A stretch of DNA of 64,000 nucleotides. Origin: Actinomycetota bacterium. Lineage in GTDB: Bacteria > Actinomycetota > Actinomycetes > Actinomycetales > Microbacteriaceae. Location: positions 18,937-82,936 of the forward strand of contig JAZBLS010000001.1 of the NCBI GenBank assembly GCA_037033365.1, given 5' to 3'. Below, piece after piece: positions 708-19,908 of the stretch. The first letter of the stretch is position 1; each line of letters starts with the position of its first letter. Below the pieces are notes generated by a model that was given only the letters and a program-made list of their open reading frames with translations, was not told where the DNA came from and did no database searches. A program made the position numbers and the translations under genes.

Positions 708-821
708 CACCCGCGAACGAGGTGTCCCAAAACGGGACGTTCATGTTCGCGTCTGAAACGTAGTTTCGAAGGACCACATCGGCGGCGCGTGCCCGAGCAG
801 CGCCCCAGGCAGGAGAACAGC

Positions 822-2351: not shown

Positions 2352-2377
2352 CGCATCAGCGACAAGGAGGTCGACGC

Positions 2378-5870: not shown

Positions 5871-5908
5871 AAGCCGAGCTGCCCATCGGGGGATTGGCAG
5901 CTCGGCTT
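5871..5908 (+). terminator. Hairpin terminator after APC permease
   Basis: AAGCCGAGCTGCC / GGCAGCTCGGCTT 13-bp perfect stem. Confidence 0.7.
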
Positions 5909-6052
5909 TGTCGTACCCGAAAGACGGCGGGCATCAGCGCCCGTCGGCGATGCACCAAACCGGAACAGTTCCCGACCGACGGCCCCCGTAGCGTCGGAGA
6001 TAGACACGAGCCGTCCGGACAATCGACGTCCGGACCCCGAAGGAAGAGTCTC

Positions 6053-7024
6053 ATGACCATCTCACAGCAGCAGCCGATTCCCACCGAGGGGCGGTACATC
6101 CTCGTCGCTCCCCATCACTTCCCTGACCTGGACCGGGAGCACGCGCTCGCCGCAGAACTCGGTGTCGAGATCGTCGCCGCGCATGACGCAGAGCATTTCC
6201 GCGAGGCGCTGCCCGGCGCAGCGGTCGTGATGGTCACTCCCTACGTAAAACTCCTCGCAGACGACCTCGCGACAATCGAACGCCCCGCGGTCATCGTCAG
6301 GTACGGCATCGGCTACGACAACATCGACGTCGCTGCAGCGGTCGAAGCGGGGATCCCGGTCTCCATCGTTCCCGACTCGTCGTCGGAGGAGGTCGCCTCC
6401 CACGCCTTCGCCATGGGAGTGGCGCTCGTTCGACGACTCCCGGCAGGCGACAGTGCCATCCGTCGTAGCGAATGGGCCGGAACTATTGCATACGAGGCTC
6501 CGACGTTCGGCGACCTCACGGTCGGCGTCATCGGCTTCGGCAGGATCGGTCGCCATGTCGCGCGCCTGTATGAAGCAATAGGCGCCAAGGTTCGCGCCTA
6601 TGACCCGTTCATCGAAGTCGACGAGAGAGTCCGCGCCGAGCTTGACGAGGCGCTCACCTCGTCCGACATCATCACCCTTCACGTGCCGCTCAGCGACGAC
6701 ACGAAGAATCTGATCTCGCGTGATGTTCTCGTACGCGTCAAGCCGGGGGCTGTGATCGTCAACGTTTCGCGCGGTGGGCTTATCGACGAGGAGGCGCTTG
6801 CGGACGCGCTGCGCGAGGGCAAGATCAGTGGAGCGGGCCTGGACACGTTTTCGACGGAACCACTCGGCGCCACCAATCCGCTTCGAAATGCTCCGAACGC
6901 GCTGCTGACGCCGCACATCGCATGGCGTTCAAACCTGTCTGTAGGGGCATTGCAGGCCGGTGCGGTCGATCGGGCACGAATCGCGCTCACTGGTGGCTCG
7001 CTCGTCGATGTCGTGACGAAGTGA
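6053..7024 (+). CDS. D-isomer-specific 2-hydroxyacid dehydrogenase (CtBP/SerA-like)
   Basis: RYGIGYDNID, GVIGFGRIG, LHVPL, NVSRGGLIDE, TPHIAW. Confidence 0.9.
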   Translation: MTISQQQPIPTEGRYILVAPHHFPDLDREHALAAELGVEIVAAHDAEHFREALPGAAVVMVTPYVKLLADDLATIERPAVIVRYGIGYDNIDVAAAVEAGIPVSIVPDSSSEEVASHAFAMGVALVRRLPAGDSAIRRSEWAGTIAYEAPTFGDLTVGVIGFGRIGRHVARLYEAIGAKVRAYDPFIEVDERVRAELDEALTSSDIITLHVPLSDDTKNLISRDVLVRVKPGAVIVNVSRGGLIDEEALADALREGKISGAGLDTFSTEPLGATNPLRNAPNALLTPHIAWRSNLSVGALQAGAVDRARIALTGGSLVDVVTK

Positions 7025-7144
7025 TTCGTTCGGTGGCCCGGTAACGGCCATCTCTCCGTGGGCTCGGGACGTTTGCGCGTCTCGAGCCCGCTCTCTTTTG
7101 GGAGGTTCGCACGGAGCAAGCATTCCTTGTCTGCAAGGCGAGGG

Positions 7145-7173
7145 TTGACAGACGGAAATTCCCGGGATACCTT
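7145..7173 (+). promoter_or_regulatory. Housekeeping-sigma promoter of the transketolase/kinase operon
   Basis: TTGACA 7145-7150, 17-bp spacer, TACCTT 7168-7173; quasi-palindrome TGAATAGGTATGCA just downstream may be the SorC-type operator. Confidence 0.65.
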
Positions 7174-7212
7174 TTTTGAGCACATCCCGTCACTAATGAA
7201 TAGGTATGCAAG

Positions 7213-8091
7213 ATGATCGACAAAGACGTCACGCAGATCGGGCGCTGGAGCGAGTGGCGCGACCGCATCTCAGAAGCCGAAGGCACTGAACAGGACGCCC
7301 TCCTCCACGAGCGCGCGCAGTGGACACGCCGATCCACCCTCCAGATGATCGCGACGGCGCAGGCTGGCCATATCGGCGGCGACTTCTCGGTGACCGACAT
7401 CCTCACGGTGCTCTTCAATCACGTGCTGAAGATCGATCCGGCCAACCCTGAGTGGGCCGAGCGAGACCGCTTCATCCTCAGCAAGGGTCACTGCGCTGCG
7501 GCGTTGTACTCGACTCTCGCCTGGGCGGGGTTCTTCTCGCCGGACGAACTCACGACCTTCATGGCGCCTCTCTCGGCGCTCAACGGCCACCCCAACCGTC
7601 GCAAGGTGCCCGGGGTCGAGACCAACACCGGTCCTCTCGGGCACGGGCTTCCGGTCGGTGTGGGTGCGGCGATCGCTGCTCGTCTCGCACGAGGCCCGGA
7701 GCGTGTTTTCGTCGTCCTCGGCGATGGCGAGATGCAGGAGGGCAGCAACTGGGAGGCGCTGATGTCGGCCGCGCACTACCGGTTGGACAACCTTTTCATC
7801 ACAGTGGATCGGAACCGCCTGCAGCAGGGTGCGCGCACGGAGGACACGAACGGTCTCGACCCGCTTCCGGAAAGGCTCGACGCCTTCGGCTGGGAGGTGC
7901 GTGAGGTGGATGGACACGACTACGGCGCACTGATCTCGGCCTATCAGCCTTCCCGCACGGGCAAGCCCGTAGCCGTGGTCGCAAACACCACGAAGGGAAA
8001 GGGCGTGTCTTTCATCGAGGACCGCGTCGAGTGGCACCACAAGGTGCCGAACGCAGAGCAGGTCGAACTGGCATTGAAGGAGCTGTCATGA
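7213..8091 (+). CDS. Transketolase N-terminal (ThDP-binding) subunit, AptA-like
   Basis: GHIGGDFS, DRFILSKGH, NTGPLGHGL, GDGEMQEG..WE..N ThDP motif. Confidence 0.9.
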   Translation: MIDKDVTQIGRWSEWRDRISEAEGTEQDALLHERAQWTRRSTLQMIATAQAGHIGGDFSVTDILTVLFNHVLKIDPANPEWAERDRFILSKGHCAAALYSTLAWAGFFSPDELTTFMAPLSALNGHPNRRKVPGVETNTGPLGHGLPVGVGAAIAARLARGPERVFVVLGDGEMQEGSNWEALMSAAHYRLDNLFITVDRNRLQQGARTEDTNGLDPLPERLDAFGWEVREVDGHDYGALISAYQPSRTGKPVAVVANTTKGKGVSFIEDRVEWHHKVPNAEQVELALKELS

Positions 8092-9047
8092 GCGTCGATA
8101 CCCCCGCCGCCGGAATGTACGACAACCGCACGGCATTCGCCGAGGAGCTCATCGCCCTCGCTGAAACCGATGAGCGCATCGTTGCCGTCTGCAATGACTC
8201 CGTCGGTTCGAGCAACCTCACTGGATTCCGTGACCGCTTCCCCGACCGCCTGATCAATGTCGGGATTGCCGAGCAGAACATGGTCGGCGTCGGGGCCGGA
8301 CTCGCCGATCGGGGTCTGATCCCGTTTGTCTGCGCGGCTGGCCCCTTCCTCACCGGGCGGTCACTCGAGCAGATTAAGGCCGACATCGCGTACAGCGGTC
8401 ACAACGTGATCCTCTGCGGAATGAGCCCCGGCATGGCATATGGAGAGCTCGGACCGACACACCACTCGGTCGAGGACTTCTCCTGGTTGCGCGCGCTCCC
8501 CGGGCTCGACATCGTCGTGCCGGCAGACCGGGAGCAGACGCGGCGCGCTGTTCGCGACGCCGTAGGCGCGCCGAGACCCACCTACATCCGTGTCGGCCGG
8601 CACAAGGTGCCGGATGTCACGGCAACGGACACTCCGTGGGAGCGCGGACGCATGCAGACGCTTCGCGAGGGAGAGGATGTCACCCTGATCGCAACAGGAA
8701 CACTCGTGTCGCGCGCGCTCCAGGCAGCAGACCAGCTCGCTACCGAAGGCGTAGGAGCACGTGTGCTCAACGCATCCTGGCTGGCTCCCTTCGATGACGA
8801 GGCAGTTGCACGTGCGTCTGTCGAGACGCGGGGAATCGTCGTCGCCGAGGAGGCGAATGTAGCGGGCGGTCTGGGCGCTGCGGTTGCCTCCGTCGTGGCG
8901 CAGCTGCCGGCGAGTCGTGCGCGCGTAAAGCTTCTCGGACTTCGCGAGTTCGCTCCGACCGGCAGCACCGACTTCCTTCTCGACTACTTCGGACTCACGT
9001 CCGCCGGGTACGTCGAAGCGGCCCGCGAGGTGTTGAGCGGTGTCTGA
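8088..9047 (+). CDS. Transketolase C-terminal subunit, AptB-like
   Basis: NVGIAEQNMVG, GPTHHSVED, EEANVAGGLG; ATGA overlap with upstream subunit. Confidence 0.9.
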   Translation: MSVDTPAAGMYDNRTAFAEELIALAETDERIVAVCNDSVGSSNLTGFRDRFPDRLINVGIAEQNMVGVGAGLADRGLIPFVCAAGPFLTGRSLEQIKADIAYSGHNVILCGMSPGMAYGELGPTHHSVEDFSWLRALPGLDIVVPADREQTRRAVRDAVGAPRPTYIRVGRHKVPDVTATDTPWERGRMQTLREGEDVTLIATGTLVSRALQAADQLATEGVGARVLNASWLAPFDDEAVARASVETRGIVVAEEANVAGGLGAAVASVVAQLPASRARVKLLGLREFAPTGSTDFLLDYFGLTSAGYVEAAREVLSGV

Positions 9048-10506
9048 GAATGTCGTTGTCGGTCCCGTCACCATCGCAGTGGACCAGGGGACGAGTGCGA
9101 CCAAAGGACTTGCGGTGGACGAGCGAGGTGTCGTCGTCGCGCGAGCGACTGCGACGTTGTCGCAGTCGCATCCGCGGCCGGGGTGGGTCGAGCAGGACCC
9201 GACGGCGATCCTCGACAGTGTGCACACCGTGGTGCGGTCGTTGCTTCACGGCCTCGAGCGACCCGTCGCCGGCGTCGGGTTCAGCACCCAGCGCGAATCG
9301 GCGGTGGCGTGGGACCGTGAGACGGGACGGCCCCTCTCGCCCGTGCTCGGCTGGCAGGACCGAAGAACCGCAGATCGCGCCCTCGCTCTTGCGGTCGACG
9401 CCGAGAGGATCCGGCGCATAAGCGGGCTGCCGCTCGACCCGATGTTCTCGGCGCTGAAACTCTCGCGCATTCTCGATGACGTCGACCCGGATCGTACCCG
9501 CGCGAGATCCGGTCGGATCGCCATGGGGACCGTGGATTCGTGGTTGTTGTGGAGCCTCACTGCCGAGCATCGCATCGAGGTGGGGAACGCGAGCCGCACG
9601 CAATTGCTCGACCTCGCCACGGGCGAGTGGAGCGACGAGTTGCTCGAGATCTTCGACATCCCGAGGGCGTGCCTTCCCGAGCTGGTGACGTCGGATGCTC
9701 CGGCCAACGCGCCGGTGTTCGATCGAATTCCACTCCGCGGCGTGCTTGGTGATTCGCACGCAGCCCTTTACGGCCACGGAGTGCGAACGCCAGGACTGGT
9801 CAAGGTGACCTATGGAACCGGCTCGTCGGTGATGGGTCTGACAGATGCGATCGTCACCGGGCCGGGGCTTGTCGGAACCATTGCGTGGAGCACTGCGGCC
9901 GGCGGCATCGCCCGCGCCTTCGAAGGCAACATCCTGGCGACGGGTGCGACGGTGCAGTGGCTCGCGCAACTTCTTGGATCCACTCCCGATCAACTCGACA
10001 CGCTCGCGAGAACGGTCTCCGACACTGGCGGGACGGACATCGTTCCCGCGTTCGCCGGACTCGGGGCCCCATGGTGGGATGAGCAAGCTGTCGCGATCAT
10101 TGCCGGTCTGCAACTCGGCACATATCCCGCACACCTCGCGCGGGCCGCGTTCGAATCGATCGCGCTACAGATCGAGGACGTGCTGACCGCTGCCGAACAT
10201 GAAGTCGGCACTGCTCTGACAACGGTGCTCGCAGACGGCGGGCCGAGTCGCAATTCCTGGCTCATGCAGCTGCAGGCAGACCTCTCCGGGCGTATCGTCG
10301 CTCGCCACGACGGCGCCGATCTTTCCGCGCTCGGTGCGGGGCGGCTCGCGGCCGTCACCGCGGGACTCATCGACCACGATGCGCTCGCCAGCAGCGCCCA
10401 TACCGATTTCATCCCCGACCCGACGTTCGATTCCGCTGAGCGCCGCCGCCGCTGGGCAGCCGCGATCGAGCGGTCCCGTCGCACCTCAGATCACGCTCGA
10501 CGCTGA
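9040..10506 (+). CDS. FGGY carbohydrate kinase (glycerol kinase/AplK-like)
   Basis: AVDQGTSATK, STQRES, WQDRRT, NASRTQL, GDSHAAL, TYGTG, DGGPSRN. Confidence 0.9.
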   Translation: MSENVVVGPVTIAVDQGTSATKGLAVDERGVVVARATATLSQSHPRPGWVEQDPTAILDSVHTVVRSLLHGLERPVAGVGFSTQRESAVAWDRETGRPLSPVLGWQDRRTADRALALAVDAERIRRISGLPLDPMFSALKLSRILDDVDPDRTRARSGRIAMGTVDSWLLWSLTAEHRIEVGNASRTQLLDLATGEWSDELLEIFDIPRACLPELVTSDAPANAPVFDRIPLRGVLGDSHAALYGHGVRTPGLVKVTYGTGSSVMGLTDAIVTGPGLVGTIAWSTAAGGIARAFEGNILATGATVQWLAQLLGSTPDQLDTLARTVSDTGGTDIVPAFAGLGAPWWDEQAVAIIAGLQLGTYPAHLARAAFESIALQIEDVLTAAEHEVGTALTTVLADGGPSRNSWLMQLQADLSGRIVARHDGADLSALGAGRLAAVTAGLIDHDALASSAHTDFIPDPTFDSAERRRRWAAAIERSRRTSDHARR

Positions 10507-10530
10507 GCCGATCCCACCAAGGAGTTTTCT

Positions 10531-11340
10531 GTGTCAACGACGACCTCATCCCTCGCTCTGTACGACAAGCACTTCACCGACCGCACGGTCGTCGTCACCG
10601 GCGGCGCCAGCGGTATCGGCCTGGGCGTAGCCCGCGCCTTCGCTGCGGCCGGTGCGAGCGTCGCCATCGCAGACCTGAGCGCCGAAGTGCTCGCTGTCGC
10701 CGAGAACGCGCGCGCTGATGGGCTCGACATGACGGGCGTCCGTCTGGATGTCACCGACGAAGCCGCCGTCATCGACTTCTTCGCCGACCTCGCTCAGCGC
10801 TGGGATCACCTCGATGTCCTTGTCAACAACGCCGGCATCATCCGCATCAACGACCTCGGTGACACCTCGCTCGCCGATTTCAATGCCGTTCTCTCGGTCA
10901 ACACGACAGCGGCCTTCCTCGCTTCACGCGAGGCACTGCCTCTGCTTCGACAGCGAGGGGGTTCTATCCTCAACGCCGCTTCGGGGCAGGCGAGGCAGGG
11001 GTTCATCTTCACGCCCGCATACGCGGCCAGCAAATTCGGCATCGTCGGCATGAGCCAGTCGCTCGCGAAGGAACTCGCTCGCGACGGCATCCGAGTCAAT
11101 TGCTATTGCCCGGGCATCGTTCGTACGGAGATGTGGGAGTACAACGACCGGGAGTGGGGCTCCCGGCTTGGCGACTACAAGCCGGGAGAACTCATCCAGG
11201 AGTGGATCAACGGCATCCCGCTCGGTCGTCCTGCGGAGAGCGACGACGTCGCCGCGCTCGTGCTGTTCCTCGCATCGGATGCAGCACGCTACATCACCGG
11301 ACAAGCCGTCAATATCGACGGCGGCATGTTTATGAACTGA
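10531..11340 (+). CDS. SDR oxidoreductase (polyol/acetoin dehydrogenase-like)
   Basis: TGGASGIG, NNAG, YAASK, YCPGIVRTEMW, TGQAVNIDGG. Confidence 0.88.
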   Translation: MSTTTSSLALYDKHFTDRTVVVTGGASGIGLGVARAFAAAGASVAIADLSAEVLAVAENARADGLDMTGVRLDVTDEAAVIDFFADLAQRWDHLDVLVNNAGIIRINDLGDTSLADFNAVLSVNTTAAFLASREALPLLRQRGGSILNAASGQARQGFIFTPAYAASKFGIVGMSQSLAKELARDGIRVNCYCPGIVRTEMWEYNDREWGSRLGDYKPGELIQEWINGIPLGRPAESDDVAALVLFLASDAARYITGQAVNIDGGMFMN

Positions 11341-11368
11341 TCGACCCTCTCGAACCGACGGAGTTTCC

Positions 11369-12388
11369 ATGAGTACCCAACCTTCCACCCAGCCCACCGA
11401 AACGGCTCTGATCCGAGGCGCCGGTTCATCAGCGGCAGCGGCCCGCACCCCGCTCTCCCGCCTGCTCTCCGGATCCGGCGGCGCGTTGCTCGGCTTCATC
11501 CTTCTCTTCGCGATCTTCTCGCTCACAACACCCCGTTTTTTCTCGGTCAACAATCTGGTCAACGTCGTCGACCAGGTGACTGTGATCGGAGTGCTCGCGA
11601 TCGGCGCGACGGCCGTCATCATCACCGGAGGTATCGATCTGTCGGTCGGCTCGGTGCTCGCGCTGAGCACGATGGTGCTCGGCTGGCTCTCCCATGACGG
11701 AGGCGTTCCGATGTGGGTCGCGATGCTCGCGGCAGTCGCCGTCGGTGCACTCGCCGGACTCCTCAACGGCCTGGGGGTGTCAATCGCCGGTCTGCCCCCT
11801 TTCATCGCCACGCTGGCGATGATGTCGATCTGCCGCGGTTTGGCGAACCTCGTCACCGACGGCCAGCAGATCGTGGGATATCCCGAGTGGTTCTATTCCC
11901 TCGCCTCGACCCGCTACCTCGGATTCTTCTCCGTCACGGCGATCGTGTTCATCCTCCTGGCCGTTGTGGCGACCGTCGTCCTCAAGTACCGGCCAGCAGG
12001 CCGAAAGGTCTACGCGATCGGCGGAAGTGCCGAGGTCGCTCGTCTCGCGGGGATCAAGGTCCGGAGCGTCACGACGTGGGTCTACGTCGCAGCCGGAGCG
12101 CTCGCCGGAGTCGGAGCAATCATCCTCGCATCGCGTCTCGACTCCTCGCAGCCGAGCGCAGGAACAGGGTATGAGCTCGACGTCATCGCCGCAGTCGTCA
12201 TCGGCGGCGCCAGCCTCAGCGGCGGTTCGGGACGCATAGCAGGCACCGTCATCGGCGTTCTGATCATCGGGGTGCTGCGCAACGGGCTCAACCTCCTCGG
12301 TGTATCGCCGTTCCTTCAGCAGATCGTCATCGGACTCGTCATCGCCGGTGCCGTCATCGTCGACGTACTGCGTCGTCGTTCGCACTGA
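11369..12388 (+). CDS. Sugar ABC transporter permease (RbsC family)
   Basis: GGIDLSVG, GRKVYAIGGSAEVARLAGI, GYELDVIAAVVIGGASL. Confidence 0.92.
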   Translation: MSTQPSTQPTETALIRGAGSSAAAARTPLSRLLSGSGGALLGFILLFAIFSLTTPRFFSVNNLVNVVDQVTVIGVLAIGATAVIITGGIDLSVGSVLALSTMVLGWLSHDGGVPMWVAMLAAVAVGALAGLLNGLGVSIAGLPPFIATLAMMSICRGLANLVTDGQQIVGYPEWFYSLASTRYLGFFSVTAIVFILLAVVATVVLKYRPAGRKVYAIGGSAEVARLAGIKVRSVTTWVYVAAGALAGVGAIILASRLDSSQPSAGTGYELDVIAAVVIGGASLSGGSGRIAGTVIGVLIIGVLRNGLNLLGVSPFLQQIVIGLVIAGAVIVDVLRRRSH

Positions 12389-12435
12389 AACCCTTCCGTC
12401 CAGAGTCGGACGGATCCATCAGAAAGGGAAATCAT

Positions 12436-13401
12436 ATGTTCAAACTCCGCAAGGTGGCCGCGTTCTCCGCGATGGTCGCCGCCGCATCCATCGCCCTGTC
12501 GGGATGCGCCATCACGCAGGCCGCCAACGACGATGGCGGTGACGACGAGATCGTCATCGGTCTCGCCGTCGCAAACCAGCAGGCCGACTTCTTCAATCAG
12601 ATCCGACAGTCGGTTGAGGCCCGGGCTGAAGAGCTCGGCGATGTCAAGGTCATTGTTGCCGACGCCAAAGGCGACGCCGATACTCAGGTGAGTCAGATCC
12701 AGGACTTCCTCACGCAGGAAGTTGATGCGATCATCTACATCCCCGCCGGAGCGACGGCGGCCACCGTCCCTGGGCGCCGGGCGAAGGACGCCGGGATCCC
12801 GGTCGTCACCGTCGATCGTAACCCTGACGGAGAGCCCGGTGACACGTTCATCGCGACCGATTCTGTGGCTGCGGCCCGTGAGCTCGCGCAATGGGTGGGG
12901 GAGCAGACCGGCGGTACGGGGGCCGTGGGCGTCATCCAGGGCCAGATCGGCACGACCCCTGAGCTCGATCGGGATGAGGGCTTCAAGGAGGGGCTCGCCG
13001 ACTATCCCGACCTCGTCGAGGTGGCCCGTCAAGCGTCCGACCAGTGGGCGCAGGACGAGGGCTTCGACATCGCCACGGACATGCTCCAGGCGCACCCGGA
13101 AATCACGGTGTTCTTCGGTCGTGCGGATGCCCTGGCACTTGGTGCGGCAAGCGCTGCCCGAACCGCGGGACGTGATGACATTCTCATCGTGGGGTTTGAC
13201 GGTGATGTCGCCGGTCTCGAAGCCGTGCGGGACGGTGAACTGGATGCGACCGTCACGCAGCCCACGCAGGCGATGGGCGCCCTCGCGCTCGATTCGGCCA
13301 TCAAGCTGGCCAACGGTGAAGAGGTGCCGGCCGAGCAGCTCCAGGCCGGAGTGCTGACCACCGCGGACAACGTCGAACCGTTCATCGAGAAGCACCCGTG
13401 A
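12436..13401 (+). CDS. Sugar/polyol ABC transporter substrate-binding lipoprotein (RbsB family)
   Basis: Lipobox LSGC; AGIPVVTVDR, GFDG; periplasmic binding fold motifs. Confidence 0.9.
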   Translation: MFKLRKVAAFSAMVAAASIALSGCAITQAANDDGGDDEIVIGLAVANQQADFFNQIRQSVEARAEELGDVKVIVADAKGDADTQVSQIQDFLTQEVDAIIYIPAGATAATVPGRRAKDAGIPVVTVDRNPDGEPGDTFIATDSVAAARELAQWVGEQTGGTGAVGVIQGQIGTTPELDRDEGFKEGLADYPDLVEVARQASDQWAQDEGFDIATDMLQAHPEITVFFGRADALALGAASAARTAGRDDILIVGFDGDVAGLEAVRDGELDATVTQPTQAMGALALDSAIKLANGEEVPAEQLQAGVLTTADNVEPFIEKHP

Positions 13402-13405
13402 TCCG

Positions 13406-13436
13406 TCGGGGTCCGCGGTTCAGCCGCGGGCCCCGA
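13406..13436 (+). terminator. Intercistronic hairpin after SBP gene
   Basis: TCGGGGTCCGCGG / CCGCGGGCCCCGA stem (one G-U pair). Confidence 0.6.
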
Positions 13437-13476
13437 TGCCCCCACCCATCGAAGTCTTCTGTCCGAGGAGGTACAG

Positions 13477-14976
13477 ATGAATACCGAGAACACGCCCGGG
13501 CTGGTGGTGCGCGGCGCGCGCAAGGTCTACCCCGGCACAATCGCGCTGGACGGCGTCGACTTGGAGGTGCGACCGGGTGAGCTCGTCGCTCTGCTCGGTG
13601 AGAACGGCGCAGGCAAATCGACCCTCTCCACCATCATCTCCGGCGCCACGAGGGCGACCGAGGTCGAGATGACCTGGAACGGCGTTCCTTACGCTCCGGC
13701 TGACCCGCGGGAGGCGATCGCGATGGGGATCGGGCTCATCCACCAGGAGATGCGACTGCTGCCGGACCTCTCGGTGGCTGAGAATGTTGCGATCGGCCGC
13801 TGGCCGATGGCTCGCGGCGTGCTCGATTCGCGAACGATGCGCCGCCAGGCGATGAAGCAGCTGGACCGGCTGGGCTTCACCGGCCGTCCCGACCAGCTCG
13901 TCTCGGAGCTCAGCGTCGCCGGACAGCAGCAGGTCGAGATCGCGAAAGCGTTGATGCTCGATGCGAACCTACTCATCCTCGACGAGCCCACCGCAGCGCT
14001 CGGCGCGGCCGAGACCGATGCCCTCTTCGAAACTGTGCAGCAACTGAAGAAGGAGGGCATGAGCTTTATCTACGTCAGCCACCGCCTCAGCGAGATTCGC
14101 CGGATCGCTGATCGGATCGTCGTCCTGCGGGATGGCGCGAAGGTGGCGGAGCACGCCCGCGGAGATGTTGATCCGGAGCAACTCGTCAGAGAGATGGTGG
14201 GCAGATCCGTTGAGAGACTGTTCCCCGAGATCCCGGTGCCTGATGCCACAGCAGCGCCGGTGCTACAAGTCGAGGGCTTCACAAGTCGTCGTGGTGAGTT
14301 CACAGACGTCACATTCGACGTCAAGCCGGGAGAGATCTTCGGCATTGCCGGCATCGTCGGCGCAGGACGTACAGAGATCGTGCGCGCGGTGGCATCCGCC
14401 GATCCGCACGTCGACGGCTCGGTGCGAGTGGCTGGGAAGTCTGTACGGCGTCGGCATCCGTCTGATGCGATCGACGCCGGTATCGTGCTCATACCTGAGG
14501 ATCGCAAGCACCAGGGTTTGGTGCTCGAGCACTCGATCGCCGACAACGTTGCGTTGCCGAATCTTGCGATACTCGGGCGCGGCGGATGGATCGGCGCCAA
14601 AGCGGTGCAGGAGCTTGCAGCCACGGTGGGGCACAAACTCGGGGTGAAGGGGCGAGCGCAGGATCCCGCTTCCTCGATGTCGGGAGGCAACCAGCAAAAG
14701 GTGGTGATCGGAAAATGGCTGCAACGGGATCCGAAGGTCATCATCCTGGACGAGCCGACTCGCGGAATCGATGTGGGTGCCAGAGCCGCGATCTACGAAG
14801 TGATCGCCGACCTCGCGCGATCCGGCGCCGGCGTGGTCGTGGTCAGCTCGGACCTCGATGAGGTGCTCGGCCTCGCGCACCGAGTGATGGTCGTCGCGGA
14901 GGGCCACATTCGCGGCATCCTGCCGCGAGATGAAGCGACCCCCGAGCGGGTCATGGGTCTCGCCGCGGCACAGTGA
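13477..14976 (+). CDS. Sugar ABC transporter ATP-binding protein (two ABC domains)
   Basis: GENGAGKST, LDEPT twice, SGGNQQK. Confidence 0.93.
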   Translation: MNTENTPGLVVRGARKVYPGTIALDGVDLEVRPGELVALLGENGAGKSTLSTIISGATRATEVEMTWNGVPYAPADPREAIAMGIGLIHQEMRLLPDLSVAENVAIGRWPMARGVLDSRTMRRQAMKQLDRLGFTGRPDQLVSELSVAGQQQVEIAKALMLDANLLILDEPTAALGAAETDALFETVQQLKKEGMSFIYVSHRLSEIRRIADRIVVLRDGAKVAEHARGDVDPEQLVREMVGRSVERLFPEIPVPDATAAPVLQVEGFTSRRGEFTDVTFDVKPGEIFGIAGIVGAGRTEIVRAVASADPHVDGSVRVAGKSVRRRHPSDAIDAGIVLIPEDRKHQGLVLEHSIADNVALPNLAILGRGGWIGAKAVQELAATVGHKLGVKGRAQDPASSMSGGNQQKVVIGKWLQRDPKVIILDEPTRGIDVGARAAIYEVIADLARSGAGVVVVSSDLDEVLGLAHRVMVVAEGHIRGILPRDEATPERVMGLAAAQ

Positions 14977-15006
14977 CTGCGGCCTGAAAACAGAAGGAGA
15001 CAGCAT

Positions 15007-15774
15007 ATGAGTGTGGATTTCGCGCTGCGCGACCGAGTGGCGTTCGTCACCGGGGGAGCGAGCGGCATCGGCCGTGCGATCGCCGTGGGCATCGCGACTC
15101 AGGGCGGCGCAGTCGGACTCTTCGATCGACCAGGAGCCGCATTCGACGAATCGATCGCGGAGGTCGAGGCCGTCGGCGGGCGGGCACTGGTGCTTGAGGG
15201 CGATGTGACGGACAAGGCTTCGTTGGATGCCGCTGTCGATGCGCTCGAAGAAGCCTTCGGCGGGCTGACCCTTGCCGTCAACGCGGCGGGGATCGCGAAC
15301 GCAGCGCCGGCGGAGGAGATGAGCCTCGAGCAGTGGTCGACCCTCTACGATGTCGACGTGACCGGCGTGTTCCTCAGTTGTCAGGCTGAGGCGCAGGTCA
15401 TGCTCGCCGCGGGCCGGACAGGATCAATCGTCAACATCGCGTCGATGTCGGGGTCGATCGTGAATCGTGGTCTGCTGCAGGCTCACTACAATTCCGCCAA
15501 GGCCGCGGTCGTGCATCTGTCGAAATCGCTCGCCGTAGAGTGGGCCGAACGCGGAATCCGCGTCAACGCGCTCAGCCCCGGCTACACTGCGACTCCGATG
15601 AACACTCGTCCCGAGATGATCGACCGCATGCGGATGTTCGCCGAGCAGGTGCCGATGCAGCGCGTCGCCGAACCGCAGGAGATCGCGGGGCCGGCCGTAT
15701 TCCTGCTGTCGGACGCGGCCAGTTACGTCACCGGCATCGATCTGCTCGCAGACGGTGGGCATTGCGCCTGGTAG
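15007..15774 (+). CDS. SDR oxidoreductase (polyol dehydrogenase-like)
   Basis: TGGASGIG, NIASMSG..NRGLLQAHYNSAK, SPGYTATPM. Confidence 0.88.
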   Translation: MSVDFALRDRVAFVTGGASGIGRAIAVGIATQGGAVGLFDRPGAAFDESIAEVEAVGGRALVLEGDVTDKASLDAAVDALEEAFGGLTLAVNAAGIANAAPAEEMSLEQWSTLYDVDVTGVFLSCQAEAQVMLAAGRTGSIVNIASMSGSIVNRGLLQAHYNSAKAAVVHLSKSLAVEWAERGIRVNALSPGYTATPMNTRPEMIDRMRMFAEQVPMQRVAEPQEIAGPAVFLLSDAASYVTGIDLLADGGHCAW

Positions 15775-15815
15775 TCGATTCGGGGCGCCGACCGAGCGGC
15801 ATTACCCTGGGGACT

Positions 15816-16826
15816 ATGGCAGATCAGCCGCGAAAGGCGGGCAGCAGGCAGAGCGTGGAGCGCCTGCGCCTGCTGGCCAAGGTGGCGCGCATGTACTACG
15901 AGCAGGGAATAAGGCAGCCCCAGATCGCGGCGACTCTAGGTATGTCGCAGTCGCGGGTCTCTCGCTCTCTGAAGGAAGCGACAGCGCTGGGCATCGTCCG
16001 CACGATCGTGCTCCCCCCTCCTGGAGTGTACGGAGACGTCGAGGATCGGGTACGAGATCGCTTCGGTTTGCGCGACGTGGTCGTGGCGGATACCCCGGAC
16101 GACTCGGAAGCGTCGATTCTGCGCGCGCTAGGAGCAGCAGGAGCAGCGTATCTCGAGAGCACTCTGACAGGAGATGACCGCGTGGGAATCAGTTCCTGGT
16201 CGTCGACGCTTCTCGCCACCGCTGATGCGATGACTCCGAGCACGGCGCGCACCGCCGTCGAGGTCGTGCAGATCATCGGCGGCGTCGGAGACCCCAGCGT
16301 GCAGGTGAATGCGACCCGTCTCGCCGAACAGTTCGCGCGGGTCACAGGAGCGGCACCGCGGTTCCTTGCCGCGCCGGGAGTCGTGAGCAGCACGGCGCTG
16401 CGGGATGCTCTTCTGGAGGATGCGTTCATCGCTGAGCTTGCGCGATCGTGGTCGCGACTGTCCGTCGCGCTCGTCGGCATAGGGAGTGTGGAGCCCTCTC
16501 CGCTGCTCAGACAGTCGACGAATGCTCTCGGGGTGGACGATCTCGGGGAGCTTCGTGAACTCGGTGGAGTCGGTGACGTCTGCCTGCGGTTCTACGACAA
16601 GCGCGGCCGCTCGCTGCATTCGCACCTCGAAGATCGCATCGTCGGCATCTCTGAGGAACAACTGCGTGCCGTGCCGAGAGTGATCGGAATCGCCGGCGGT
16701 GCACGCAAGTTCTCCGCGATCCGTGGAGCCGTGCTCGGCGGATGGATCAACACCCTCATCACAGATCTCGACACGGCCAAGGCGCTTCTCGCCGACGGCG
16801 CAACCACACTCAAGGAGCAGTCATGA
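15816..16826 (+). CDS. SorC/DeoR family sugar-binding transcriptional regulator
   Basis: VARMYYEQGIRQPQIAATLGMSQSRVSRSL HTH, VGDVCLRFYD, AGGARKFSAIRGAVLGGWINTLITD. Confidence 0.9.
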   Translation: MADQPRKAGSRQSVERLRLLAKVARMYYEQGIRQPQIAATLGMSQSRVSRSLKEATALGIVRTIVLPPPGVYGDVEDRVRDRFGLRDVVVADTPDDSEASILRALGAAGAAYLESTLTGDDRVGISSWSSTLLATADAMTPSTARTAVEVVQIIGGVGDPSVQVNATRLAEQFARVTGAAPRFLAAPGVVSSTALRDALLEDAFIAELARSWSRLSVALVGIGSVEPSPLLRQSTNALGVDDLGELRELGGVGDVCLRFYDKRGRSLHSHLEDRIVGISEEQLRAVPRVIGIAGGARKFSAIRGAVLGGWINTLITDLDTAKALLADGATTLKEQS

Positions 16827-17266
16827 CTTCGACCCTCTCGATCGCATTCCTCAAAGCGGGCTGGCACGCCGACATCGTCGACCAGGCCCTTGCGGGCTTC
16901 ACCGCCGAAATGCAGGATTCTGGCCTACCGCACGAGATCACGGTGCTGGACGTACCGGGTGCCTTCGAACTCCCATTGCAGGCGAAGCGGGCAGCGTCGA
17001 CGGGACAGTATGGAGCTGTCGTCGCAGCTGCCCTGGTCGTTGACGGCGGTATCTACCGACATGACTTTGTCGCTCAGGCGGTGGTTGACGGTTTGATGCG
17101 CGTGCAACTCGACACGGACGTTCCCGTTTTCTCGGTAAGTCTCACGCCTCATAACTTCCAGGAGACTGCCGAGCACATCGGCTTCTTCTCGGAGCATTTC
17201 GTCAAGAAGGGGCGGGAAGCGGCCCGTGCCGTCCGAAGGATCGCCGCGCTGGACTCGGCGGTCTGA
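16823..17266 (+). CDS. ribH: 6,7-dimethyl-8-ribityllumazine synthase, type II (RibH2-like)
   Basis: WHADIVD, DVPGAFELPL, VDGGIYRHDFVA, TPHNFQET..H..FF..HF.KKG; ATGA overlap with regulator stop. Confidence 0.88.
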   Translation: MTSTLSIAFLKAGWHADIVDQALAGFTAEMQDSGLPHEITVLDVPGAFELPLQAKRAASTGQYGAVVAAALVVDGGIYRHDFVAQAVVDGLMRVQLDTDVPVFSVSLTPHNFQETAEHIGFFSEHFVKKGREAARAVRRIAALDSAV

Positions 17267-17311
17267 TCTGCACCGAGCCGGGGGACGACCACGACGGCCG
17301 TCCCCCGCACA

Positions 17312-18127
17312 TCAGTCGGAGAGCGATTCGATTCGCGCCCTGGCGCTCTCGAGAGAATCGATGATCCGCTGAGCGTGGTCGATCGCGAAACCCCAGGTGG
17401 TCCGGTGCGTGACGATGATGTACTCCCCGCGCAGGAGCCCGTCGATCCCCGCGCGGGCGACGTCGGCCGGATCCTGCGCGAGCGGCAGAATCGCTGCGGC
17501 GGCCTCAATAGAAGCCTCTGTCATCTCAATAATGCGTTCGGTAAGGATCCATCCGGGAGCGAAGAGCGACACCTGCACACCACTACCGGCGAAATCCCGG
17601 CGAGCGGTGTCGGTGAACGCCAACGTCGCGTATTTGCTCACCGTGTAGGCGCTGACGGCCATCACGTGTGGTGGGACTCCCAGGGAGTGCTCCGAGCCGA
17701 CATTGAGGATCGCGGCCTCCCCGCCGGACGCGGCTGTGGCTCGGAGCGCGGGCGCGAACGCGTGGATGCCGTTGAACACACCGGCTATGTTGACGTCGAA
17801 GACACGGTGGGCACTCGCCGGGTCGATCATGTCCAGGCCCCCGAGTCCGCCCTCGGCAGCCGCGTTGTTGATCACGAGGTTCACGCCACCATGAGTCCTC
17901 TCCACATGCCTCGCGAGTGCGGCGACCTCGGCGTACTCCGCGACATCGGTCCGCACCCACTCCGCCGTACCGCCGGCAGCACCGATCTCTCTGACCGTGG
18001 AGGACGCGTCGCTCTGAGAAGCGATCACGACCGTCGCTCCACGACGCGCGGCTTCCAGCGCTAACGCACGCCCGAGACCGACTCGACCACCCGTGACGAC
18101 CGCGACCGAACCGTTCAGATCAGTCAT
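17312..18127 (-). CDS. SDR oxidoreductase
   Basis: TGGRVGLG, NNAA, YTVSK. Confidence 0.85.
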   Translation of the reverse strand: MTDLNGSVAVVTGGRVGLGRALALEAARRGATVVIASQSDASSTVREIGAAGGTAEWVRTDVAEYAEVAALARHVERTHGGVNLVINNAAAEGGLGGLDMIDPASAHRVFDVNIAGVFNGIHAFAPALRATAASGGEAAILNVGSEHSLGVPPHVMAVSAYTVSKYATLAFTDTARRDFAGSGVQVSLFAPGWILTERIIEMTEASIEAAAAILPLAQDPADVARAGIDGLLRGEYIIVTHRTTWGFAIDHAQRIIDSLESARARIESLSD

Positions 18128-18140
18128 GAGCTCAGCGCCT

Positions 18141-18974
18141 TCACAAACCGAACGCGGTTCGAATGACGCGGTCGAACCCACGATCGGGGAGCAGCCATCG
18201 GAGTGCGAGCATCGGAGCGGCTCCGAAGCCGACGCGGTAGCGGGTGCGAGGTCGTCGCGTTCGAGCGATCTTTACGACCGTCTTGCCAATGAGCTCGGGA
18301 GCTGAAGTGTTGCGCGCGTTTGGCGCGGAACTCGCGGCGAGCGTACTCGCGACCTTGGCGGCCATCGTCGCGTACGCGCCGGCTGCCGAGGTCTGGGTGA
18401 GCGTCTCGGCGGCGATCGCTCCCCATTCGGTGCGGATGGAACCCGGTTCGATGACCACCGTGTGCACGCCGAATCGACTGGCCTCGATGCGCAGAGCGTC
18501 GCTGAGCGCCTCGACGGCGTACTTGCTGGCGTGATACCAACCGCCCAGCGGCGTGACGAGCTTGCCGCCCATGGAGCTGATGTTGATGATCGTGCCGGAC
18601 TTCTGCCGACGCATGTGCGGCAGCACCAGTTGAGTCAGACGCGCGAGCCCGAAGACATTCACGTCGAGCTGCTGGCGAGCCTCGCTCAGTGGCACGTCTT
18701 CGATCGATCCGTAGGAGCCGTAGCCGGCATTGTTCACTAGCAGGTCAATCCTCCCGGTGTCGCGGATGATCGTCTCCACGGCAGTGGTGAGTGATGCCTC
18801 GTCGGTGACGTCGAGCGCGATAGTTCTCACCCCATCACGCTCAAGGTCCTTCATCCGGTTCACGCGGCGCGCAGCGCCGTATACGATGAATCCCTCATTC
18901 TTCAAGCGAATCGCTGTGTCTGCCCCGATTCCGGAGGAGGCTCCGGTGACTAAGGCGACTCTCGTGGTGGCCAT
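18141..18974 (-). CDS. SDR oxidoreductase
   Basis: TGASSGIG, NNAGYGSYG, YHASK, EPGSIRTEW. Confidence 0.9.
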   Translation of the reverse strand: MATTRVALVTGASSGIGADTAIRLKNEGFIVYGAARRVNRMKDLERDGVRTIALDVTDEASLTTAVETIIRDTGRIDLLVNNAGYGSYGSIEDVPLSEARQQLDVNVFGLARLTQLVLPHMRRQKSGTIINISSMGGKLVTPLGGWYHASKYAVEALSDALRIEASRFGVHTVVIEPGSIRTEWGAIAAETLTQTSAAGAYATMAAKVASTLAASSAPNARNTSAPELIGKTVVKIARTRRPRTRYRVGFGAAPMLALRWLLPDRGFDRVIRTAFGL

Positions 18975-18997
18975 GATGATCCTCTTCTTCAACTCGC

Positions 18998-19810: not shown

Positions 19811-19871
19811 GTGCTGTCTCCTCTTGTCGTCAATGCGTCCAAGCGACGCAATGAACACATCATGCAACAAA

Positions 19872-19886
19872 TGACACCTGGTGTCA
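19872..19886. promoter_or_regulatory. Palindromic operator between divergent SDR and TetR
   Basis: TGACACC-T-GGTGTCA perfect inverted repeat. Confidence 0.65.
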
Positions 19887-19908
19887 ATAGTGTCCCACCT
19901 GTTACGCT

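What the first reader, a model, noticed from the sequence alone, without database searches (positions are those of the whole stretch)
7213..16826. Apiose-type transketolase/kinase operon with two SDRs in place of the isomerase
Seen: split transketolase, FGGY kinase, two SDRs, RbsABC-type transporter, SorC regulator; no sugar isomerase gene in the operon. Known: the non-oxidative D-apiose pathway uses isomerase ApsI, kinase AplK and split transketolase AptAB, which these genes resemble by motif recall. Inference: a variant entering the branched ketose by oxidoreduction (aldose to polyol to ketose) or from a branched polyol such as apiitol.
Basis: partly seen in the sequence, partly recalled or inferred. 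Interest (0 to 1): 0.55.

Follow-up and report, generated by a model that had tools for sequence, protein, structure and literature searches.

The report
Apiose-type operon using two dehydrogenases
A Microbacterium-like bacterium carries a ten-gene operon that most likely breaks down the branched plant sugar D-apiose, with two dehydrogenases in place of the usual isomerase; the same arrangement was reported in E. coli ST131 in 2026, so this is a real but not a new kind of pathway.

Summary

- The operon matches the E. coli SE15 D-apiose cluster gene for gene. That cluster also lacks apsI and carries two SDRs (J Bacteriol 2026, PMC13001218; those strains grow on apiose).
- Identities are AptA 45%, AptB 37%, AplK 41%, and the SDRs 48% and 59%. 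All are reciprocal best hits.
- The kinase carries the residues that separate all 61 cluster-linked kinases from glycerol kinases.
- Across 55 related loci the transketolase/kinase core comes with either the SDR pair or an isomerase (FucI-like or TIM-barrel). Only one locus has both.
- Neither isomerase type is found in this 92%-complete genome.

What differs:
- The binding protein is not the known apiose-binding type.
- DUF2291 is absent.
- A lumazine-synthase paralogue is added.

The chemistry (apiose to apiitol to apulose) and the true substrate remain untested.

Verdict: a new member of a known, still uncharacterised variant. This scan has already met the E. coli island, and one similar two-SDR locus, on other DNA.

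The parts
7058..7091 (+). Intrinsic terminator of the upstream 2-hydroxyacid dehydrogenase gene. It marks the 5' boundary of the unit.
   Evidence: A 15-pair stem followed by a T run.
7145..7212 (+). Putative promoter and leader. It holds a -35-like TTGACA at 7145-7150 and an imperfect inverted repeat at 7167-7175 / 7199-7207 that may be an operator.
   Evidence: Read from the sequence and from the repeat finder. Consensus-level evidence only; not tested.
7213..8091 (+). AptA-like transketolase N-terminal (ThDP-binding) subunit, 292 aa.
   Evidence: PF00456 at E 1e-44. It is 45% identical to E. coli SE15 AptA and a reciprocal best hit. His26/66/100/261, Asp155 and Asn185 equivalents are kept.
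8088..9047 (+). AptB-like transketolase C-terminal (pyrimidine-binding) subunit, 319 aa, with an ATGA overlap with aptA.
   Evidence: PF02779 and PF02780. It is 37% identical to E. coli AptB. The start is read. The column aligned with TktA Asp469 is Leu, as in all cluster-linked transketolases.
9040..10506 (+). AplK-like FGGY kinase, a glycerol-kinase-derived putative apulose kinase, 488 aa.
   Evidence: PF00370 and PF02782. It scores 408 bits on the GlpK model, below the 590-bit cut-off. It is 41% identical to E. coli AplK. Signature residues are K22, M135, S239, S263, N297 and S429.
10531..11340 (+). SDR1, the 'SDRb' type, orthologue of E. coli ECSF_RS02675. A candidate apiose 1-reductase or C2 oxidoreductase.
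   Evidence: PF13561 and PF00106. It is 48% identical to RS02675 and a reciprocal best hit (255 bits against 132 for the next hit). It sits in a 17-member clade with SH-aLRT 100 seen only in these clusters. The nearest solved structures are butanediol and acetoin reductases.
11369..12388 (+). CUT2 (Rbs-type) ABC permease.
   Evidence: PF02653. It is 77% identical to the Arthrobacter crusticola locus L004.
12436..13401 (+). Lipoprotein solute-binding protein of a type different from the 5IBQ-like binding protein of the E. coli cluster.
   Evidence: PF13407 and lipobox LSGC. It scores 112 bits to 5IBQ, against 165 bits to a ribose-binding protein. The E. coli cluster's binding protein scores 270 bits to 5IBQ. 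The two binding proteins are 30% identical.
13477..14976 (+). ABC transporter ATPase with two ATP-binding domains.
   Evidence: PF00005 matched twice.
15007..15774 (+). SDR2, the 'SDRa' type, orthologue of E. coli ECSF_RS02670. A candidate apiitol (polyol) 2-dehydrogenase, probably using NAD.
   Evidence: NCBIfam equivalog NF004774 at 389 bits, above the 360-bit cut-off; E. coli RS02670 scores 506 on the same model. It is 59% identical to RS02670 and a reciprocal best hit. The nearest solved structures are galactitol, sorbitol and mannitol dehydrogenases. An Asp ends strand beta-2 (sequence VGLFDR).
15817..16826 (+). SorC/DeoR-family sugar-phosphate-responsive regulator.
   Evidence: PF04198. 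It is 38% identical to the E. coli cluster regulator. The start is read.
16823..17266 (+). RibH2-type 6,7-dimethyl-8-ribityllumazine-synthase paralogue, translationally coupled to the regulator gene. Its role in the operon is unknown.
   Evidence: PF00885, and NF009084 at 222 bits against a 160-bit cut-off. ATGA overlap with the regulator's stop. A second, 32%-identical copy lies elsewhere in the genome. Homologues sit next to AplK-clade kinases in L055 and L008.
17280..17306 (.). G+C-rich hairpin between the operon's end and the convergent gene at 17312-18181.
   Evidence: GGGGGACG ... CGTCCCCC, read.

Best explanation
This is a SorC-regulated catabolic operon of the transketolase-type D-apiose pathway, in the variant that lacks an apiose isomerase.

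Proposed route:
1. The ABC transporter imports D-apiose, and possibly D-apiitol.
2. Two different SDR oxidoreductases together perform the net aldose-to-ketose conversion. One most likely reduces C1 of apiose to give apiitol. The other, best guess SDR2 (a polyol-dehydrogenase-like, NAD-type enzyme), oxidises C2 of apiitol to give apulose.
3. The glycerol-kinase-derived FGGY kinase phosphorylates apulose.
4. The split transketolase transfers the C1-C2 unit of apulose 4-phosphate to glyceraldehyde 3-phosphate, giving xylulose 5-phosphate and dihydroxyacetone phosphate.

Shown here:
- gene content and operon structure;
- one-to-one orthology with the E. coli ST131 apiose cluster;
- the kinase's membership of the AplK-type clade;
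- replacement of the isomerase by the SDR pair across lineages.

Inferred, not shown:
- the substrate;
- the apiitol intermediate;
- which SDR does which step;
- the role of the RibH2-like gene.
For: 1. Pfam and NCBIfam identify all the parts.

2. The published comparator is close. PMC13001218 describes the E. coli SE15 cluster ECSF_RS02670-02715 as an apiose cluster without apsI and with two putative oxidoreductases. Strains carrying it grow on D-apiose and K-12 does not.

3. The window genes match that cluster one to one: AptA 45%, AptB 37%, AplK 41%, SDR1 to RS02675 48%, SDR2 to RS02670 59%, SorC 38%. All are reciprocal best hits in both whole genomes.

4. SDR2 and RS02670 both pass the NCBIfam equivalog NF004774. 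SDR1 lies in a clade (SH-aLRT 100) found only in these clusters.

5. In the kinase tree a glycerol-kinase clade separates from all cluster-linked kinases (SH-aLRT 97). Columns that are Tyr, Gln and Phe in all 22 GlpK-like rows (by my recollection GlpK Tyr135, Gln246 and Phe270) are Met/Leu, Ser and Ser in 57-61 of 61 cluster-linked kinases, the window's included.

6. Among 55 loci with the transketolase/kinase core, 15 carry SDRs, 36 carry a FucI-like or TIM-barrel isomerase, one carries both and five carry neither. The entry module switches at least three times within the kinase tree.

7. The genome holds no FucI-like homologue and only a 26%-identical TIM-barrel hit. It has a separate canonical transketolase and a separate glycerol kinase.

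8. The reversible NADH-linked reduction of D-apiose to D-apiitol is a recorded reaction, KEGG R03577 (PMC1686944).
Against: - Pairwise identity to the E. coli enzymes is modest. E. coli AplK scores 323 bits on the window kinase, against 303 bits on the genome's own glycerol kinase.
- No actinobacterial cluster of this family has, to my knowledge, been tested.
- The enzymes characterised by Carter et al. 2018 could not be retrieved for comparison.
- The binding protein is not of the 5IBQ type that accompanies the isomerase clusters and the E. coli cluster. The imported molecule could therefore differ.
- The cassette of kinase, SDR1 and this transporter also occurs without a transketolase and without SDR2, next to an acetoin-dehydrogenase-like E1/E2 complex (L005 and L006).
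- SDR2's clade also holds members from polyol loci that have no transketolase (L101 and L102).
- The E. coli evidence is correlative growth, not knockouts or enzymology.
- The genome is 92% complete, so absence of an isomerase is not absolute.
Confidence: 0.65

Rival explanations
1. The physiological substrate is a polyol, D-apiitol or another small or branched sugar alcohol, rather than apiose. The distinct binding protein imports the polyol. One SDR oxidises it to the ketose that the kinase and transketolase then use. The second SDR handles a second polyol or a stereoisomer.
For: - This binding-protein type accompanies the SDRs in every non-enteric locus and never accompanies an isomerase.
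- It is no closer to the 5IBQ type than to ribose-binding proteins.
- SDR2's closest solved relatives are polyol 2-dehydrogenases. Members of its clade sit in polyol-type loci with GlpD-like dehydrogenases and other FGGY kinases.
- L005 and L006 carry only SDR1 with the same transporter.
Against: - A polyol needs only one dehydrogenase, yet the two SDR families are paired in 11 complete loci across four phyla.
- The same SDR pair in E. coli goes with a 5IBQ-type binding protein and with growth on the aldose apiose.
- Free apiitol is not known to me as an abundant natural compound (my own knowledge).
Confidence: 0.17
2. The operon degrades a different small ketose precursor, for example a tetritol or tetrulose, or a 1-deoxy-tetrulose related to 3,4-dihydroxy-2-butanone. 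The RibH2-like protein takes part by binding or converting the 4-carbon ketose phosphate.
For: - A RibH2-type lumazine-synthase paralogue is translationally coupled to the operon. The normal substrate of that family is a 4-carbon ketose phosphate.
- Homologues lie next to AplK-clade kinases in L055 and L008.
- L008 pairs such a kinase with a GlpD-like dehydrogenase, as in erythritol loci.
- SDR1 resembles butanediol and acetoin reductases. In L005 and L006 it sits beside an acetoin-dehydrogenase-like complex.
Against: - The RibH2-like gene is missing from the closest full homologue (L004) and from 52 of 55 core loci, so it is accessory.
- Cleaving erythrulose 4-phosphate with a transketolase would release glycolaldehyde phosphate, which has no obvious metabolic fate (inference).
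- One-to-one orthology with a cluster tied to growth on apiose favours apiose.
Confidence: 0.1
3. Face-value annotation: a ribose or pentose ABC importer grouped with a housekeeping transketolase, a glycerol kinase and two unrelated FabG-like reductases, with no dedicated pathway.
For: Public names for the closest homologues are 'glycerol kinase', 'FGGY family carbohydrate kinase', 'transketolase' and 'SDR family oxidoreductase'.
Against: - The genome has its own canonical full-length transketolase (C24) and a GlpK-clade kinase (C79).
- The operon's kinase lacks the residues at 135 and 263 that are Tyr and Phe in every GlpK-like kinase in the comparison.
- The transketolase lacks the Asp469 equivalent.
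- The gene set is syntenic across phyla.
Confidence: 0.03

Closest known systems
D-apiose degradation cluster of E. coli ST131/STc14 and E. fergusonii (reference SE15, ECSF_RS02670-02715; J Bacteriol 2026, PMC13001218)
   Same: - Split transketolase (AptA, AptB), FGGY kinase (AplK), SorC regulator, CUT2 ABC transporter and two SDR genes, with no apsI.
- Both SDRs, the transketolase subunits, the kinase and the regulator are reciprocal best hits.
- SDR2 and RS02670 share the NCBIfam equivalog NF004774.
   Different: - Identity is only 37-59%.
- The window's binding protein is of another type (30% identical; 112 bits to 5IBQ against 270 bits for the E. coli one).
- There is no DUF2291 gene.
- All genes lie in one co-directional operon.
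- An extra RibH2-like gene is present.
- The host is an actinobacterium.
- AptB falls under the 40% identity threshold of that paper's own screen (AptB at 40% or more was required), so the screen would have missed this cluster.
Canonical transketolase route for D-apiose: ApsI, AplK, AptA/AptB (Carter et al. 2018, Nat Chem Biol; MetaCyc PWY-8089, as cited in PMC13001218 and PMC13753588)
   Same: The same lower pathway is inferred: a kinase on the ketose apulose, then a split transketolase yielding DHAP and xylulose 5-phosphate. The kinase and transketolase families are shared with isomerase-bearing clusters.
   Different: There is no isomerase. Neither the FucI-like gene that fills the apsI position in enterobacterial clusters nor the TIM-barrel gene of actinobacterial clusters is in the operon or the genome. 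I could not compare directly with the enzymes that were assayed.
TIM-barrel (PF01261) version of the same core in Microbacteriaceae and other Actinomycetota (for example Microbacterium sp. STN6, L007)
   Same: The transketolase subunits are 67-79% identical, the kinase 55-59% and the SorC regulator 55-62%. The backbone order is the same: transketolase N subunit, C subunit, kinase..., SorC.
   Different: Between kinase and regulator those loci carry a xylose-isomerase-like TIM-barrel gene, with or without a 5IBQ-type transporter. The window carries the cassette SDR1, permease, binding protein, ATPase, SDR2 instead.
Apiose 1-reductase reaction (D-apiose + NADH = D-apiitol + NAD+; KEGG R03577. 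By my own knowledge this is EC 1.1.1.114, described in apiose-grown Aerobacter/Klebsiella in 1970, with no gene assigned)
   Same: It is the first half of the proposed two-step bypass. Enterobacterial relatives of Klebsiella (Raoultella, L045) carry the two-SDR cluster.
   Different: No sequence is attached to that activity, so there is nothing to compare. The link is an inference.
Xylose reductase / xylitol dehydrogenase route of fungi
   Same: The same logic: an aldose is converted to its 2-ketose through the polyol by two nicotinamide-dependent oxidoreductases, then phosphorylated.
   Different: The protein families differ (aldo-keto reductase and MDR in fungi, two classical SDRs here), as do the substrate and the organisms. 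This is an analogy of mechanism only.

Membership tests
Transketolase-type D-apiose pathway (AplK + AptAB core) | Adjacent genes for a split transketolase (N subunit PF00456; C subunit PF02779 and PF02780) with the ThDP, Mg and catalytic His residues intact. | tested here: met
   The equivalents of His26, His66, His100, Asp155, Asn185, His261, Glu411 and His473 are kept. Asp469 is replaced by Leu, as in all 64 cluster-linked transketolases that were aligned, the window and E. coli included.
Transketolase-type D-apiose pathway (AplK + AptAB core) | An FGGY kinase of the AplK clade, distinct from glycerol kinase. | tested here: met
   It lies outside the GlpK clade (SH-aLRT 97). It shares K22, M135, S239, S263, N297 and S429 with 47-61 of the 61 cluster-linked kinases. 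It is 41% identical to E. coli AplK.
Transketolase-type D-apiose pathway (AplK + AptAB core) | A D-apiose isomerase (ApsI) supplying apulose. | tested here: not met
   No FucI-like hit and only a 26%-identical TIM-barrel hit in the 92%-complete genome. None in the operon.
Transketolase-type D-apiose pathway (AplK + AptAB core) | A solute-binding protein of the apiose-binding type (5IBQ/4RY0-like). | tested here: not met
   The window's binding protein scores 112 bits to 5IBQ and ranks below ribose-binding proteins. The E. coli cluster's binding protein scores 270 bits. That 5IBQ holds apiose is from my memory and was not checked here.
Transketolase-type D-apiose pathway (AplK + AptAB core) | Enzyme activities on apulose and apulose 4-phosphate, and growth on D-apiose. 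| not testable with these tools
   This needs enzymology or culture. The genome is a metagenome-assembled one (278 contigs).
Two-SDR (isomerase-free) variant of the apiose cluster, E. coli ST131 type | An orthologue of ECSF_RS02670 (NCBIfam NF004774). | tested here: met
   SDR2 is 59% identical and scores 389 bits against a 360-bit cut-off. It is a reciprocal best hit and falls in the same clade.
Two-SDR (isomerase-free) variant of the apiose cluster, E. coli ST131 type | An orthologue of ECSF_RS02675. | tested here: met
   SDR1 is 48% identical and a reciprocal best hit. It falls in a clade with SH-aLRT 100 found only in these clusters.
Two-SDR (isomerase-free) variant of the apiose cluster, E. 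coli ST131 type | The same transporter set: a 5IBQ-type binding protein plus DUF2291. | tested here: not met
   The binding proteins are 30% identical, there is no DUF2291, and the ATPase is not a reciprocal best hit.

The most novel reading that the evidence does not exclude
The cassette found here and in other Actinomycetota and Alphaproteobacteria (AplK-clade kinase, SDR1 and a new binding-protein type) may serve a substrate other than apiose, such as a branched or deoxy tetrulose or its polyol. In that reading the RibH2-type lumazine-synthase paralogue, which recurs beside such kinases, has been recruited from riboflavin synthesis to bind or transform the 4-carbon-backbone ketose phosphate.
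Probability: 0.12. Interest if true: 0.7.

Novelty: new member of a known kind. Interest (0 to 1): 0.38.

Why it matters
D-apiose is a signature sugar of plant cell-wall pectin (rhamnogalacturonan II and apiogalacturonan). How bacteria consume it bears on plant-litter turnover and gut ecology.

The isomerase-free route is known only as a hypothesis from E. coli ST131. This operon shows that the same SDR pair is a conserved, horizontally mobile module spanning Actinomycetota, Alpha-, Beta- and Gammaproteobacteria. It alternates with two unrelated isomerases on the same transketolase/kinase core.

That gives clear candidates for the gene or genes behind the apiose reductase activity recorded as KEGG R03577, which by my recollection has no assigned gene, and for an undescribed apiitol 2-dehydrogenase. 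It also gives soluble, non-pathogen orthologues to assay. The practical gain is better annotation: public databases call these genes glycerol kinase, transketolase and FabG-like reductases.

Tried and rejected
- Carter et al. 2018 (PMC6435334) is not held. I could not read which protein family ApsI belongs to, nor compare with the assayed enzymes. I therefore tested both candidate isomerase families.
The contexts of the closest kinase homologues (62-75% identity; P0002-P0013, among them Microbacterium sp. SA39) were not examined.
- The search for homologous proteins returned only generic names, with no 'apulose kinase' label.
- NCBIfam has no model named for AplK, AptAB or ApsI.
- A search for SDR1 orthologues in 400 sampled Actinomycetota found none besides the window. 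SDR2 orthologues in 300 Microbacteriaceae were found in four genomes and were not linked to a transketolase in the three whose flanks were examined (G090, G222, G285; G110 sat on a 981-base contig).
- The transketolase active-site comparison lacked an outgroup of ordinary split transketolases. It shows that the cluster-linked enzymes are homogeneous, but not what they are specific for.
- I judged the upstream 2-hydroxyacid dehydrogenase (5894-7024) and amino-acid permease (4375-5856) to be outside the unit. A terminator separates them and they are not conserved in related loci.
- Cofactor motifs do not assign the two steps. Both window SDRs have an NAD-type Asp, and E. coli RS02675 does not.
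- I did not attempt a comparison of binding-site residues in the binding protein, because I had no verified ligand contacts for 5IBQ.

Full report
**What is there**

The window is about 65% G+C. It lies on contig C1 of a 3.4-Mb, 278-contig, 92%-complete assembly. The closest named homologues come from Microbacterium and other Microbacteriaceae.

Between a strong terminator at 7058-7091 and a G+C-rich hairpin at 17280-17306 lie ten co-directional genes. The gaps between them are 75 nt or less, and three pairs overlap:

| Gene | Coordinates | Note |
|---|---|---|
| Transketolase N subunit | 7213-8091 | |
| Transketolase C subunit | 8088-9047 | ATGA overlap with the gene before |
| FGGY kinase | 9040-10506 | |
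| SDR1 | 10531-11340 | |
| ABC permease | 11369-12388 | |
| Lipoprotein binding protein | 12436-13401 | |
| ABC ATPase | 13477-14976 | |
| SDR2 | 15007-15774 | |
| SorC regulator | 15817-16826 | |
| RibH2-type lumazine-synthase paralogue | 16823-17266 | ATGA overlap with the gene before |

Pfam and NCBIfam confirm each assignment. Its end coordinate misses the tenth gene, and two starts (8031 and 15540) were too far upstream.

**Comparison with the published E. coli cluster**

A full-text search found one relevant paper, J Bacteriol 2026 (PMC13001218). It describes a D-apiose cluster in E. coli ST131/STc14 and E. fergusonii (reference SE15, ECSF_RS02670-02715).
- The authors name aplK, aptA and aptB in it.
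- Carriers grow on D-apiose and K-12 does not.

I fetched that region (L001). It holds two SDRs, a permease, an ATPase, DUF2291, a binding protein, an FGGY kinase, a SorC regulator, and the transketolase N and C subunits.

BLASTP pairs the window genes with it one to one:

| Window gene | E. coli partner | Identity |
|---|---|---|
| Transketolase N subunit | AptA | 45% |
| Transketolase C subunit | AptB | 37% |
| FGGY kinase | AplK | 41% |
| SDR1 | RS02675 | 48% |
| SDR2 | RS02670 | 59% |
| SorC regulator | cluster regulator | 38% |
| Permease | cluster permease | 37% |
| Binding protein | cluster binding protein | 30% |

The two SDRs, both transketolase subunits, the kinase and the regulator are reciprocal best hits between the two whole genomes. 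For the SDRs the margin is wide: 302 bits against 129 for the next hit, and 255 against 132. For the kinase it is narrow: 323 bits against 303 for the genome's own glycerol kinase.

**Is the kinase really of the AplK type?**

A scan of about 185,000 species genomes, using an alignment of the two kinases, returned 80 loci. In a tree of those kinases, 22 rows without a neighbouring transketolase (the window genome's second FGGY gene on C79 among them) form a glycerol-kinase clade. That clade is separated from all cluster-linked kinases with SH-aLRT 97.

Column-by-column comparison gives a signature. Where all 22 GlpK-like rows have Tyr, Gln and Phe, the cluster-linked kinases have Met/Leu (57 of 61), Ser (61 of 61) and Ser (61 of 61). 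By my own knowledge of E. coli GlpK, those three positions are Tyr135, Gln246 and Phe270, and the Tyr and Phe clamp glycerol. There are also K22, N297 and S429. The window kinase and E. coli AplK carry all of these. This fits an enlarged pocket for a bulkier, branched substrate.

**The transketolase**

The genome has a separate canonical full-length transketolase on C24. Aligned to E. coli TktA, the operon's split enzyme keeps the cofactor ligands and catalytic histidines. It has Leu at the column aligned with Asp469 and Ser at the column aligned with His461. So do the other cluster-linked transketolases outside the Enterobacterales, whatever their entry module. The enterobacterial set, E. coli AptAB included, has the same Leu but Asn and Gly at the columns aligned with His461 and Arg520.

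Without ordinary split transketolases as an outgroup, this shows one family. It does not show specificity.

**Do the SDRs replace the isomerase?**

I classified the loci by tblastn and Pfam. The transketolase/kinase core comes with one of three entry modules:

| Entry module | Where it is found |
|---|---|
| The SDR pair | The window; Arthrobacter crusticola (L004), which has the same nine genes (tblastn found no RibH2-like gene in that locus) in nearly the same order (SDR2 after the SorC gene); Streptomyces; Spirillospora; Labrys; Inquilinus; several alphaproteobacterial MAGs; a deltaproteobacterial MAG; Raoultella; E. coli |
| A 472-aa isomerase with a fucose-isomerase C-terminal domain (PF02952) | Enterobacterales, where it sits between aptB and aplK; Bacteroidota; a Bryobacteraceae MAG |
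| A xylose-isomerase-like TIM barrel (PF01261) | Most Actinomycetota |

Of 55 core loci, 15 carry SDRs, 36 carry an isomerase, one carries both and five carry neither. The five are mostly truncated contigs. Fisher's test gives p = 4e-8, not corrected for relatedness.

On the kinase tree the module switches at least three times across well-supported branches. The window groups with both an SDR-type locus (L004) and a TIM-type locus (L007). The E. coli/Raoultella SDR type is nested among enterobacterial FucI types.

In 300 sampled Microbacteriaceae, 11 other genomes matched the transketolase query. Ten of them carry a close core (transketolase N subunit 68-75% by that search). The TIM-barrel gene was found in all nine whose flanks extended beyond the kinase. 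The window looks like that backbone with the segment between kinase and regulator exchanged for SDR1, permease, binding protein, ATPase and SDR2.

The window's own genome has no FucI-like homologue and only a 26%-identical TIM-barrel hit. This is the pattern expected if the SDR pair does the isomerase's job.

**The two SDRs**

Both have intact classical SDR motifs and an Asp at the end of strand beta-2, which usually means NAD.

SDR2:
- It passes the NCBIfam equivalog NF004774, as does E. coli RS02670.
- Its nearest solved relatives are galactitol, sorbitol and mannitol dehydrogenases.
- Its clade also contains members from polyol-type loci with GlpD-like dehydrogenases.
- I therefore favour it as the polyol (apiitol) 2-dehydrogenase.

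SDR1:
- It belongs to a clade seen only in these clusters (SH-aLRT 100).
- It resembles butanediol and acetoin reductases.
- By elimination it would be the apiose reductase, but this assignment is weak.

The order could also be oxidation at C2 first and reduction at C1 second. An NADH-linked interconversion of apiose and apiitol is on record as KEGG R03577. From memory, it was described in 1970 in apiose-grown Aerobacter and has no gene assigned.

**What does not fit neatly**

- *Binding protein.* The window's binding protein is not the type found in the E. coli and isomerase clusters. The E. coli protein scores 270 bits to PDB 5IBQ/4RY0, which I recall as an apiose complex. The window's scores 112 bits and is closer to ribose-binding proteins. 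Outside the enterics this binding-protein type always accompanies the SDRs. That may reflect cassette inheritance or a different imported molecule such as apiitol.
- *Loci without a transketolase.* In Streptosporangium amethystogenes and Herbiconiux moechotypicola, the kinase, SDR1 and this transporter occur with neither transketolase nor SDR2, beside an acetoin-dehydrogenase-like E1-alpha/E1-beta/E2 set.
- *An erythritol-like locus.* In Pseudarthrobacter enclensis an AplK-clade kinase sits with a GlpD-like dehydrogenase and a RibH2-like gene.
- *The RibH2-like gene.* It recurs in Paracidovorax wautersii just upstream of the transketolase. It is absent from most loci, so I treat it as accessory and unexplained.

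**Distribution**

The variant is rare in its phylum. There was no SDR1 orthologue in 400 sampled Actinomycetota, and no core or SDR2 in the four same-genus genomes. The operon is accessory and probably acquired horizontally.

**Verdict**

The variant has already been published for E. coli as a hypothesis, and this scan has met that E. coli island and another two-SDR locus before.

I rate this a new member of a known kind. It has three local peculiarities: a different binding protein, no DUF2291, and an added RibH2-like gene. The biochemistry of both SDRs remains open and directly testable.

Noticed in passing
window 16823-17266: A RibH2-type lumazine-synthase paralogue (NF009084, 222 bits) overlaps the SorC stop by ATGA and is the last gene of the sugar operon. 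The genome has another, 32%-identical copy on C122. Homologues (53-60% identical) sit beside AplK-clade kinases in L055 (Paracidovorax wautersii, just upstream of the transketolase) and L008 (Pseudarthrobacter enclensis).
   Followed up: partly
L007:11442-12518, and L009, L012, L015, L019, L021, L024-L031, L033-L035, L037, L039-L043, L058, L104-L111: A xylose-isomerase-like TIM-barrel gene (PF01261) is the commonest partner of the AptAB/AplK-like core in Actinomycetota. It is a third entry module, not homologous to the others and mutually exclusive with both the FucI-like isomerase and the SDR pair. I found no description of it in the papers I could read.
   Followed up: partly
L005:17015-20644 and L006:3354-6251: In Streptosporangium amethystogenes and Herbiconiux moechotypicola, the AplK-like kinase, SDR1 orthologue, same-type ABC transporter and SorC regulator are joined to an acetoin-dehydrogenase-like set instead of a transketolase: E1-alpha, E1-beta and an E2 catalytic domain in both loci, plus a lipoate-ligase-like gene seen in L005. 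This may be an oxidative ThDP cleavage in place of the transketolase.
   Followed up: partly
L008:301-15512: An AplK-clade kinase (56% identical to the window's) lies in an erythritol-like locus with an ABC transporter, a SorC regulator, a GlpD-like FAD dehydrogenase, a RibH2-like gene and an inserted transposase. Kinases of this clade are therefore not confined to transketolase pathways.
   Followed up: no
L074:8549-9965 (Leclercia adecarboxylata NCTC13032): The FucI-like isomerase of this apiose-type cluster matches in two pieces (residues 1-236 and 237-472) in different frames. That suggests a frameshifted gene.
   Followed up: no
window 17312-20547: Three tandem SDR genes on the minus strand (17312-18181, 18141-18992, 18998-19870) lie next to a divergent TetR regulator (19909-20547). 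They are only distantly related to the operon's SDRs (long branches).
   Followed up: no
window 789-4207: An aldehyde dehydrogenase (789-2351) is followed by a 609-aa regulator with weak sigma-54-activator-type AAA+ matches and a Fis-type HTH (2378-4207). The host appears to be an actinobacterium, a group that (from memory) lacks sigma-54.
   Followed up: no
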